From: an uncultured Mobiluncus sp.
GTDB taxonomy: Bacteria > Actinomycetota > Actinomycetes > Actinomycetales > Actinomycetaceae
Assembly (NCBI RefSeq): GCF_943914685.1
Contig: NZ_CALUCZ010000008.1
Location: forward strand, 4,109-68,108
Direction: 5' to 3'
Length of the DNA stretch: 64,000 bases
How positions within the stretch are numbered: the first letter of the stretch is position 1; the number at the start of each line of letters is the position of its first letter. Positions 24,746 to 24,942 of the stretch are shown here, one piece after another. A program made the position numbers and the translations under genes. The notes beneath the pieces were generated by a model, which was given only the letters and a program-made list of their open reading frames with translations, had not been told where the DNA came from and did not search any database.

Positions 24746-24942
24746 GTACTTGAAGGGAGGTAAGGGCCAGCGGCTCCAGCGATGGGCGTACGATTCGTAC
24801 GCTGCGTCAATCTTAGGGCGCGGGGTTTTCCACGCCGCAGGTTTAAAGATTGACATGACCGCAATCCGGTCTGCGACCGGCTTGCCAAGAGCCCAAGGCT
24901 AACAGTGGATCGTATGGCCCTTCCTCCCTTCAGATTAAGTAC
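24746..24942 (+). ncRNA. Candidate retron-type non-coding RNA (msr/msd-like): a structured 147-nt region bounded by 23/27-nt inverted repeats, immediately 5' of the RT gene.
   Basis: a1 = gtacttgaagggaggtaagggcc (24746-24768). a2 = ggcccttcctcccttcagattaagtac (24916-24942), whose reverse complement is gtactTAATCtgaagggagg-aagggcc. Internal hairpins: gcgtacg-att-cgtacgc; gtcaatctt...aagattgac; ccggtc-tgc-gaccgg. No ORF. Confidence 0.35.

What the first reader, a model, noticed from the sequence alone, without database searches (positions are those of the whole stretch)
24746..24942. Inverted-repeat-bounded structured non-coding region immediately 5' of the RT, resembling a retron msr/msd
The sequence gtacttgaagggaggtaagggcc (24746-24768) is the near-exact reverse complement of ggcccttcctcccttcagattaagtac (24916-24942). 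That gives 22 paired positions (5 + 10 + 7) with one bulge. These repeats bracket 147 nt that contain no ORF but several local hairpins: gcgtacg-att-cgtacgc; gtcaatctt..(inner imperfect stem ggcgcgg/ccacgcc)..aagattgac; and ccggtc-tgc-gaccgg. The distal repeat overlaps the first codons of the RT. Long a1/a2 inverted repeats flanking an approx. 150-200 nt structured RNA directly upstream of, and co-oriented with, an RT gene is the defining layout of retron msr-msd loci.
Basis: seen in the sequence. Interest (0 to 1): 0.8.

Follow-up and report, generated by a model that had tools for sequence, protein, structure and literature searches.

The report
Retron RNA gene without its usual effector
The folded non-coding stretch in front of this Mobiluncus reverse transcriptase is very probably a genuine retron RNA, the template for a small RNA-linked DNA, from a known retron lineage (type III-A) that has lost its usual partner toxin gene here; this makes it a modest variant rather than a new kind of system.

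Summary

**Structure.** The inverted repeat is real and longer than reported. It runs 24746-24778 against 24906-24942, about 28 bp. It closes four hairpins (RNA MFE -99.8 kcal/mol, z = -6.7).

**Conservation.** The same ~200-nt element sits before the orthologous RT in Varibaculum, Arcanobacterium and two metagenome lineages. Compensatory changes occur in 17 of 58 pairs, with G·U pairs and strong strand asymmetry. No reading frame is conserved across it.

**Selection.** Between two Mobiluncus alleles the element has 0/197 differences. The spacer has 8/142 and the RT 36/1141 (26 synonymous and 9 non-synonymous codons).

**Family.** The RT best matches PADLOC RT_III-A (2.5e-102). The layout matches the validated type III-A3 Retron-Eco11: a bipartite repeat over the RT start codon, an invariant G (24779) directly after the 5' arm, msr hairpins, then two msd hairpins.

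**Differences.** No PRTase-like effector is present, although the closest RT relatives outside this group that I could assess carry one upstream. The main msd hairpin is short, so the predicted msDNA is about 50 nt.

**Context.** The element lies in a 6.8-kb strain-variable island with a WYL regulator, a double AAA+ ATPase and a DUF6994-like protein.

msDNA production remains untested.

The parts
24746..24778 (+). 5' inverted repeat (IRa2). The conserved part is 24750-24778. The outer GTAC at 24746-24749 pairs only in Mobiluncus.
   Evidence: It pairs with 24906-24942. In alignment A3 this helix has 29 pairs, 9 of them with compensatory change.
24779..24779 (+). Predicted branching (priming) G, the first unpaired base after the last repeat pair A24778-U24906.
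   Evidence: Invariant in all 7 aligned elements, in the context A-G-Y-G-A-U-G. AGTGATG, or a variant with one mismatch, follows the 5' arm in relatives L060 and L075 (folds) and lies upstream of the RT in L072, L099 and L017. Eco11 likewise has its branching G directly after the repeat (PMC12746101). The function is inferred.
24786..24802 (+). msr stem-loop 1 (GCGUACG-AUU-CGUACGC).
   Evidence: The sequence differs in every lineage while the pairing is kept: GGCUCGCG/CGCGUGCC, GGCUUGC/GCAAGCC and GCCACG/CGUGGC.
24806..24854 (+). msr composite stem-loop. The outer stem is GUCAAUCUU/AAGAUUGAC and the inner stems are imperfect. It is the most sequence-conserved part and the likely RT recognition element.
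   Evidence: The outer helix is 100% paired, with 2 compensatory pairs (GUCGCU/AGCGAC in L059).
24855..24860 (+). Linker AUGACC. This is the predicted region where reverse transcription stops and the 3' end of the msDNA stays paired to the RNA.
   Evidence: Inference by analogy with the Eco11 layout. The adjacent GACAUG is invariant in A3. The boundary is not determined.
24861..24885 (+). msd hairpin corresponding to the Eco11 DNA stem-loop DSLb, but only 25 nt here.
   Evidence: It folds as DNA on the complementary strand. Each lineage forms its own hairpin of different sequence and length at this position. It is 55-70 nt in PRTase-linked relatives L060 and L075 and in Eco11.
24890..24900 (+). 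msd small hairpin (AGCC-CAA-GGCU) corresponding to Eco11 DSLa (13 nt).
   Evidence: The helix is 100% paired, with 2 compensatory pairs in A3. An equivalent small hairpin lies next to the 3' arm in L060 and L075.
24906..24942 (+). 3' inverted repeat (IRa1). It contains the RT start codon (24914-24916) and RT codons 2-9.
24914..26083 (+). Retron-type reverse transcriptase, 389 aa, with catalytic YCDD at residues 259-262.
   Evidence: Pfam RVT_1 at 5e-17. PADLOC RT_III-A model PDLC02944 at 2.5e-102. Catalytic residues are invariant among 55 homologues. There are 26 synonymous and 9 non-synonymous codon differences between two Mobiluncus alleles.

Best explanation
Positions 24746-24942 encode the msr-msd non-coding RNA of a retron, and 24914-26083 encodes its reverse transcriptase.

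**Proposed mechanism.** Each step below is inferred from the known retron pathway, not shown here.
1. The RNA is transcribed together with the RT.
2. Its two ends pair into a stem of about 28 bp. This places the invariant G24779 next to the template base just 5' of the 3' arm (about 24905).
3. The RT recognises the conserved msr hairpins (24786-24854).
4. The RT uses the 2'-OH of G24779 as primer and copies the msd part leftwards, through the small hairpin (24890-24900) and the variable hairpin (24861-24885).
5. It stops near 24855-24860. The product is a branched RNA-DNA molecule whose DNA part is about 50 nt with two small stem-loops.

**Lineage.** The RT belongs to the type III-A retron subfamily. 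This Actinomycetaceae clade (Mobiluncus, Varibaculum, Arcanobacterium) has no PRTase-like effector and has a shortened main DNA hairpin. It is therefore a 'solo' RT + ncRNA module. Its output, whether defence or something else, and any partner protein are unknown.
For: **Structure beyond chance.** z = -6.74 for the window element. Orthologous elements folded on their own give the same layout, with z = -7.3, -7.4 and -3.2.

**Covariation.** 17 of 58 pairs carry changes on both sides, against 5.0 +/- 1.8 in shuffles (0 of 500 reach it) and 1-6 in slid controls. 91% of cells are paired.

**Strand.** The covariance model scores 129-232 bits on the + strand and at most 19 bits on the - strand.

**Non-coding.** No frame is open across the element in all lineages.

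**Selection within Mobiluncus.** The element has 0/197 differences, against 8/142 in the upstream spacer and 36/1141 in the RT. RT codon differences are 26 synonymous and 9 non-synonymous.

**RT family.**
- The window RT scores 342 bits against PADLOC RT_III-A model PDLC02944.
- The solo orthologues and the PRTase-linked relatives have the same best model.

**Layout.** It equals that of validated Retron-Eco11: the ncRNA overlaps the RT start, the repeat is a bipartite 25 bp, the branching G follows directly, short msr stem-loops come next, and the msDNA has a 13-nt and a long stem-loop (PMC12746101). PRTase-linked relatives L060 and L075 show the same layout.

**Motif.** AGUGAUG (or a one-mismatch variant) follows the 5' arm in L060 and L075, and the same motif lies upstream of the RT in three further PRTase-linked loci.

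**Decay with the RT.** The two Varibaculum-type copies whose RT is disrupted (L002, L109) carry 3 and 2 mismatched pairs (mostly A-C). The two intact copies carry none.
Against: - There is no experimental evidence for a transcript or for msDNA.
- There is no Rfam hit, even at E <= 10.
- My covariance model of this clade does not detect the ncRNAs of PRTase-linked relatives. Homology to type III-A ncRNAs therefore rests on layout, position, a 7-nt motif and RT phylogeny.
- The covariation comes from only four independent lineages. The structure was derived from the same sequences that were then counted.
- The retron RT signature triplet VTG reads ILG here, and NAXXH reads NISAH.
- The score against the NCBIfam retron_St85_RT model is below its cut-off (156 against 235).
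- The msd stem is much shorter than the 'long stable stem-loop' typical of retrons.
- No effector was identified.
- No promoter-like site was found on the + strand upstream.
Confidence: 0.8

Rival explanations
1. A decaying relic. The RT and ncRNA descend from a type III-A retron, but after losing the PRTase effector the module no longer does anything, and the structure is conserved only through recent common descent.
For: - The PRTase is absent.
- The RT is disrupted in 2 of the 4 Varibaculum-type copies (L002, L109).
- The main msd hairpin is shortened.
- The island is missing from some Mobiluncus strains.
Against: - The RT ORF is intact in three genera whose proteins are only about 51% identical, and the helices are kept by compensatory changes across that distance.
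- The RT is under purifying selection (26 synonymous and 9 non-synonymous codon differences), and the ncRNA has zero changes while its flanks vary by 3-6%.
Confidence: 0.08
2. A cis-acting leader that only regulates RT translation. The long stem sequesters the RT start codon, and no DNA is made from it.
For: - The ATG at 24914 lies inside the stem, and there is no Shine-Dalgarno sequence upstream of it.
- The 5' arm is itself Shine-Dalgarno-like (GAAGGGAGG).
Against: - The same overlap of the 3' arm with the RT start codon occurs in Retron-Eco11, which does make msDNA.
- A plain attenuator does not explain the invariant G at the stem end, the four conserved internal hairpins, or the retron-type RT.
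- The two roles are not exclusive.
Confidence: 0.06
3. A DNA-level feature, meaning an attachment or recombination site, a protein-binding palindrome, or a transcription terminator for the upstream gene.
For: - The element lies in a 6.8-kb strain-variable island.
- It lies downstream of gene 23770-24603.
Against: - G·U pairs, which would be A-C mismatches on the other strand, and the more than 100-bit strand asymmetry of the covariance model indicate selection on one RNA strand.
- The island boundaries (19504/19505 and 26302/26303) are far from the repeat.
- There is no T-run after the stem, and no terminator-like site was called there.
- The 3' arm is inside the RT coding sequence.
Confidence: 0.02

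Closest known systems
Retron-Eco11 (type III-A3 retron of E. coli; PMC12746101)
   Same: - The ncRNA lies directly upstream of the RT on the same strand and overlaps its start codon.
- The terminal repeat is long and bipartite (25 bp in Eco11, about 28 bp here).
- The branching G is the first unpaired base after the repeat.
- Short msr stem-loops come next.
- The msd then has a variable hairpin, followed by a hairpin of about 13 nt next to the 3' arm.
   Different: - Eco11 has a PRTase-wHTH effector whose stop codon lies in the 5' arm. There is none here.
- The Eco11 msDNA is 101 nt with a 69-nt stem-loop. Here the predicted DNA is about 50 nt with a 25-nt stem-loop.
The III-A subtype of this RT is not established.
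PRTase-linked type III-A retrons whose RT matches PADLOC model PDLC02944 (for example metagenome loci L060 and L075, Planctomycetales L004, Sphaerochaeta L003)
   Same: - They share the best RT model, with 33-42% RT identity.
- The ncRNA position and layout are the same.
- The AGUGAU(G/A) motif follows the 5' arm.
   Different: - These loci carry a PRTase_III-A gene immediately upstream. L060 was confirmed by PADLOC, together with the more distant loci L005 and L006. 39 loci gave a tblastn hit at E < 0.01, and 25 of them at E < 1e-8.
- Their main msd hairpin is long.
- The covariance model of the window's clade does not detect their ncRNAs.
Effector-less retron lineages (Ec107/Retron-Eco5-like clade 2 branch and clade 11; Mestre et al. 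2020, PMC7736814; SPIRE survey preprint 10.64898/2026.05.14.725207)
   Same: An RT plus ncRNA with no recurrent accessory gene. Some of these lineages occur in Actinomycetota.
   Different: The RT here scores far better against RT_III-A (342 bits) than against the Ec107-like (166) or outgroup (170) models. It is therefore an independent effector-less offshoot of a PRTase-bearing subfamily.
Retron-Eco1 (Ec86), the canonical retron
   Same: Terminal a1/a2 repeats, the branching G in an A-G-C/U context directly after a2 (from my own knowledge of the Ec86 sequence), and msr hairpins followed by an msd hairpin.
   Different: The RT clade differs (type II-A3), the effector is an NDT-like protein, the repeat is 12 bp, and the msDNA is 86 nt with one long stem.

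Membership tests
Retron (RT + msr-msd ncRNA) | Reverse transcriptase of the retron clade | tested here: met
   The 25 best PADLOC hits shown are all retron RT models, and the best is RT_III-A at 2.5e-102. The NCBIfam retron_St85_RT model is the best NCBIfam hit but falls below its cut-off (156 against 235). The group II intron RT model scores 45 bits against a cut-off of 300.
Retron (RT + msr-msd ncRNA) | Retron RT signature motifs NAXXH and VTG (Mestre 2020) | tested here: inconclusive
   Read from the sequence: NISAH at residues 235-239, so N and H are kept, and ILG at 310-312 in place of VTG. N235 and G312 are invariant among 55 homologues.
Retron (RT + msr-msd ncRNA) | Structured non-coding RNA gene adjacent to the RT and on the same strand | tested here: met
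   The element is directly upstream and overlaps the first 29 nt of the RT ORF.
Retron (RT + msr-msd ncRNA) | Terminal inverted repeats (a2/a1) that close the structure | tested here: met
   24746-24778 pairs with 24906-24942. The pairing is kept in all lineages, with 9 compensatory pairs.
Retron (RT + msr-msd ncRNA) | Conserved branching G immediately 3' of the 5' repeat | tested here: met
   G24779 is invariant in 7 of 7 elements and unpaired in the consensus. This shows conservation only. Its priming role is not testable here.
Retron (RT + msr-msd ncRNA) | msr with 1-3 hairpins and msd with a long stable stem-loop | tested here: inconclusive
   The msr hairpins are present. The msd hairpins are present but short, 25 nt and 11 nt.
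Retron (RT + msr-msd ncRNA) | Production of branched msDNA with a 2'-5' linkage | not testable with these tools
   Needs msDNA extraction and a debranching assay.
Type III-A retron (Mestre et al. 2020) | RT belongs to a III-A RT group | tested here: met
   PADLOC RT_III-A model PDLC02944 at 342 bits. The next family outside III-A scores 195 bits. PRTase-linked relatives have the same best model.
Type III-A retron (Mestre et al. 2020) | PRTase-like effector gene next to the ncRNA and RT | tested here: not met
   - No PADLOC PRTase hit for any neighbouring gene, even at E <= 10.
- tblastn with three retron PRTases finds nothing in the 64-kb window.
- An HMM built from 25 retron-linked PRTases finds nothing in the window or in orthologous loci, with best E of 0.95 or worse.
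- The upstream protein (23770-24603) is predicted to be all-alpha, not a PRTase fold.
Any Rfam family (including curated retron msr models) | Covariance-model match | tested here: not met
   No match at E <= 10 in 24000-26500. The only gathering-score match in the whole window is a tRNA.
Diversity-generating retroelement | Template and variable direct repeats near the RT | tested here: not met
   No direct repeat of 30 nt or more in 19000-30000. The RT best matches retron models.

The most novel reading that the evidence does not exclude
This Actinomycetaceae clade may be a new retron type in which the PRTase effector has been replaced by a WYL-regulated module built around a rare DUF6994-like protein. 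In Mobiluncus that module also includes a double AAA+ ATPase.

**For.**
- The DUF6994-like family is rare: 62 cluster representatives among 1.8 billion.
- It lies within 4 kb of this RT clade in two genera, Mobiluncus and Arcanobacterium.
- It occurs in none of about 130 other retron RT loci.
- In Mobiluncus one copy occupies the position that the PRTase holds in relatives.

**Against.**
- Varibaculum copies stand alone.
- One other member of the family has no RT nearby.
- Shared ancestry of the locus could explain the linkage.
Probability: 0.2. Interest if true: 0.6.

Novelty: new variant of a known kind. Interest (0 to 1): 0.35.

Why it matters
**What it adds.**
- It adds a retron clade from Actinomycetaceae, including human urogenital and skin commensals, in which I found no reported retron in the searchable literature.
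- It supplies a conserved ncRNA structure that no Rfam model detects.

**What it offers biologically.**
- It is a natural case of a retron RT and ncRNA kept under purifying selection after the canonical effector was lost.
- That bears on the open question of what effector-less retrons do, and on whether retron modules can swap effectors.

**Possible use.** The ncRNA is compact, about 190 nt with a predicted msDNA of about 50 nt. It might interest people developing retron editors for high-GC Gram-positive hosts.

None of this would surprise a retron specialist much.

Tried and rejected
1. **Rfam.** Searches at E <= 10 and at gathering score gave nothing but a tRNA.
2. **Covariance model R1 on other loci.** I ran it on about 130 other RT loci with default filters, and on 11 loci with filters off. 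It recovers only its own clade plus meaningless hairpin hits. I could not show sequence-level homology to PRTase-linked ncRNAs.
3. **Upstream gene 23770-24603 as a divergent PRTase.** Rejected by BLASTP, PADLOC, HMM and the predicted all-alpha fold.
4. **Downstream genes as effectors.** The 263-aa membrane protein (26311-27102) and the metallophosphatase (28178-28909) are rejected. Retron-less Mobiluncus strains keep both between pntB and sodA, so they are core genes.
5. **ORF 26094-26309 (71 aa).** It diverges by 10% between alleles and spans the island junction, so it is probably not a gene.
6. **DGR and group II intron readings.** Rejected.
7. **Promoter scan.** It found no + strand sigma-70-like site. 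A TATGAT at 24694-24699 is not conserved between alleles.
8. **Context of DUF6994-like relative P0090.** It has no RT nearby, and the gene divergent from it is not WYL-like.
9. **Automated measurement of repeat spacing with RNAduplex.** It failed and was not used.
10. **Supplementary tables of Mestre 2020.** They are not held.
11. **Look-up of P0031.** It found no record.

Full report
**1. The observation.** The sequence is as described. GTACTTGAAGGGAGGTAAGGGCC (24746-24768) is the near reverse complement of GGCCCTTCCTCCCTTCAGATTAAGTAC (24916-24942) (repeat finder I2/I3). Folded as RNA, 24740-24945 gives -99.8 kcal/mol, against -69.0 +/- 4.6 for 200 dinucleotide-preserving shuffles (z = -6.74, none as stable).

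It encloses four hairpins:
- 24786-24802
- 24806-24854
- 24861-24885
- 24890-24900

The RT start codon is the ATG at 24914, inside the 3' arm. It is conserved in the orthologues, and in Varibaculum it is preceded by an in-frame TAG. Two ORFs overlap the element in this window, one of 50 aa on the + strand and one of 122 aa on the - strand. In Varibaculum and Arcanobacterium every frame on both strands is interrupted by one to five stops. The region is therefore non-coding.

**2. Origin and relatives.** The RT is 100% identical to a protein named as from an uncultured Mobiluncus sp.. Orthologues of 40-54% identity occur in:
- Varibaculum cambriense (L001)
- V. vaginae (L002)
- Arcanobacterium hippocoleae (L049)
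- metagenome contigs L050, L059 and L109

Each carries a homologous element of about 200 nt at the same place, overlapping the RT start.

**3. Structure conservation.**
- RNAalifold on seven copies, representing four independent lineages, predicts 58 pairs, of which 17 show changes on both sides.
- Counting on that structure, 91.2% of cells are paired. The 17 compensatory pairs compare with 5.0 +/- 1.8 in column shuffles (0 of 500 reach it) and with 1-6 when partners are slid by 1-3 columns.
- Each lineage folded alone adopts the same layout: L059 z = -7.3, L001 z = -7.4, L049 z = -3.2.
- The Arcanobacterium outer stem uses several G·U pairs.
- A covariance model scores 129-232 bits on the + strand and at most 19 bits on the - strand. 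Selection therefore acts on an RNA of the + strand, not on a DNA palindrome.

Two caveats apply. There are only four lineages, and the structure was derived from the sequences that were then counted.

**4. Selection within Mobiluncus.** Two alleles of the locus exist, the window type and the L140-L145 type. Differences between them are as follows.

| Segment | Differences |
|---|---|
| ncRNA | 0/197 |
| Spacer just upstream | 8/142 |
| Rest of the RT gene | 36/1141 |
| Upstream gene (23770-24603) | 16/834 |

At the pooled rate of the spacer and the RT, about 6.8 changes would be expected in the element, so P(0) is about 0.001 by my own arithmetic. RT codon differences are 26 synonymous and 9 non-synonymous, which indicates purifying selection.

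Within the Varibaculum group, the two copies whose RT is broken carry 3 and 2 mismatched pairs (mostly A-C). These are L002, where the ATG has become ACG and the ORF is split, and L109, which is truncated and has a 434-aa ORF on the opposite strand immediately downstream that I did not identify. The two intact copies carry none. The numbers are small, but this fits the structure being maintained only while the RT works.

**5. What the RT is.**
- Pfam RVT_1 at 5e-17.
- The 25 best PADLOC hits shown are all retron RT models. The best is RT_III-A model PDLC02944 at 2.5e-102 (342 bits). The best model outside III-A scores 195 bits.
- The NCBIfam retron_St85 model is the best NCBIfam match but falls below its cut-off. 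The group II intron RT and Drt models score far lower.
- YCDD and the other catalytic residues are invariant among 55 homologues.
- The retron signature NAXXH reads NISAH, and VTG reads ILG (read from the sequence).
- There are no direct repeats that could serve as DGR template and variable regions.

**6. Comparison with type III-A retrons.** Mestre et al. (PMC7736814) define type III by a PRTase-like effector.

In the nearest RT relatives outside the clade, a PRTase-like ORF lies immediately upstream of the ncRNA on the same strand:
- These relatives are 33-42% identical and share the best PADLOC RT model.
- PADLOC confirms PRTase_III-A at 2.6e-74 in L060, and in the more distant loci L005 and L006.
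- tblastn gives a hit at E < 0.01 in 39 loci, 25 of them at E < 1e-8.

Folding the intergenic RNA of L060 and L075 gives this order: long terminal repeat, unpaired G region, short hairpins, a long hairpin, a hairpin of about 14 nt, then the 3' repeat.

The published description of Retron-Eco11 (type III-A3, PMC12746101) is the same:
- The ncRNA overlaps the effector stop codon and the RT start codon.
- The repeat is 25 bp in two arms.
- The branching G28 follows directly.
- There are three short msr stem-loops.
- The msDNA is 101 nt, with a 13-nt stem-loop (DSLa) and a 69-nt stem-loop (DSLb).

The window element maps onto this plan piece by piece. After the last repeat pair comes an invariant G (24779) in the context A-G-Y-G-A-U-G. 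AGUGAUG, or a one-mismatch variant, follows the 5' arm in L060 and L075, and the same motif lies upstream of the RT in L072, L099 and L017. I therefore assign G24779 as the branching G, 24786-24854 as msr, and 24861-24905 as msd. The complementary DNA of 24855-24905 folds into the two expected small stem-loops. These assignments are inferences by analogy. The exact ends of the msDNA cannot be computed.

**7. What is different.**
- No PRTase-like gene exists near the element or anywhere in the 64-kb window. There is none in the Varibaculum, Arcanobacterium or Ancrocorticia-type loci either.
- The hairpin corresponding to DSLb is 13-25 nt in this clade, against 55-70 nt in PRTase-linked relatives.
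- The RTs of the clade score lower against PDLC02944 (339-373 bits, against 467-512 for the PRTase-linked relatives). This fits a derived branch.

The most economical reading is loss of the effector in an Actinomycetaceae sublineage of a type III-A subfamily. Effector-less retron lineages are already known, namely the Ec107-like branch and clade 11 (PMC7736814; preprint 10.64898/2026.05.14.725207). This is a further, independent case.

**8. Surroundings.** Retron-less Mobiluncus strains (L147-L150) have pntB, then the 263-aa membrane protein, then the metallophosphatase, then sodA. Alignment places the variable island at window positions 19505-26302. It holds:
- a WYL/WCX regulator (19549-20715, - strand)
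- a 971-aa protein with two CbbX/SpoVK/EccA-type AAA+ modules (20814-23729)
- a 277-aa protein (23770-24603)
- the ncRNA
- the RT
- a doubtful 71-aa ORF

The 263-aa protein and the phosphatase are therefore core genes and not retron partners.

The 277-aa protein belongs to a rare family distantly related to DUF6994. The 281-aa protein at 27181-28026 is a distant paralogue (hhalign E = 3.6e-5; HMM), and it is internally deleted in the same retron-less strains. Arcanobacterium has a WYL gene (34% identical) and a DUF6994-like gene (40%) in an operon about 2-4 kb from its retron. None of about 130 other retron RT loci has a DUF6994-like ORF.

**9. Verdict.** I put the confidence that this is a functional retron ncRNA and RT pair at about 0.8.

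It is not a full type III-A system, because the defining PRTase was tested and not met. It is best described as a PRTase-less, short-msd variant of that lineage.

What it does without a recognisable effector is unknown. msDNA production, the branching G and the msDNA ends all need experiment.

Noticed in passing
window 19505-26302: A 6.8-kb strain-variable island sits between pntB and a core membrane-protein gene. It is absent from Mobiluncus loci L147-L150. There are no flanking direct repeats and no integrase. It carries WYL, a double AAA+ gene, a DUF6994-like gene and the retron.
   Followed up: partly
window 20814-23729 (+): A 971-aa protein has two CbbX/SpoVK/EccA-type AAA+ modules (residues about 430-690 and 700-935) after an N-terminal region of about 420 aa that matches no family. 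PADLOC gives only weak IetA and DolB hits. It may be part of an undescribed defence module.
   Followed up: no
[not shown]
   Followed up: partly
window 27195-27956: The retron-less Mobiluncus strains keep only the first and last few codons of the 281-aa gene. This is an internal 762-bp deletion, so loss of this gene coincides with absence of the island.
   Followed up: partly
window 29863-29948: tRNA-Ser(GGA) lies downstream of sodA. In strain L150 an integrase, FtsK, UvrD and RepSA element (it looks like an actinomycete integrative element) is inserted near this site, so the region is an integration hotspot.
   Followed up: no
window 24750-24758 and 24914-24931: The 5' arm GAAGGGAGG looks like a Shine-Dalgarno sequence. 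The 3' arm encodes the conserved LPPF at RT residues 3-6. The RT ATG has no Shine-Dalgarno sequence and is buried in the stem, so RT translation may depend on opening or processing of the ncRNA.
   Followed up: no
L055-L058 and L146 (Ancrocorticia populi and an Actinomycetaceae bacterium): A second effector-less RT of the same PADLOC subfamily (38% identical) lies at a fixed chromosomal site between the ACT/DUF711 genes and an AraC gene, close to rpsB-tsf. It has its own conserved structured upstream region. This looks like a vertically inherited solo retron.
   Followed up: partly
L075 4571-4573: In this PRTase-linked relative the effector's TAG stop codon coincides with the UAG of the UAGUGAUA motif. 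The putative branching G would then be part of the effector's stop codon.
   Followed up: no
window 26094-26309: The called 71-aa ORF directly after the RT differs by 10% in nucleotides between two otherwise 96-98% identical alleles, and it runs across the island junction. It is probably not a gene.
   Followed up: partly
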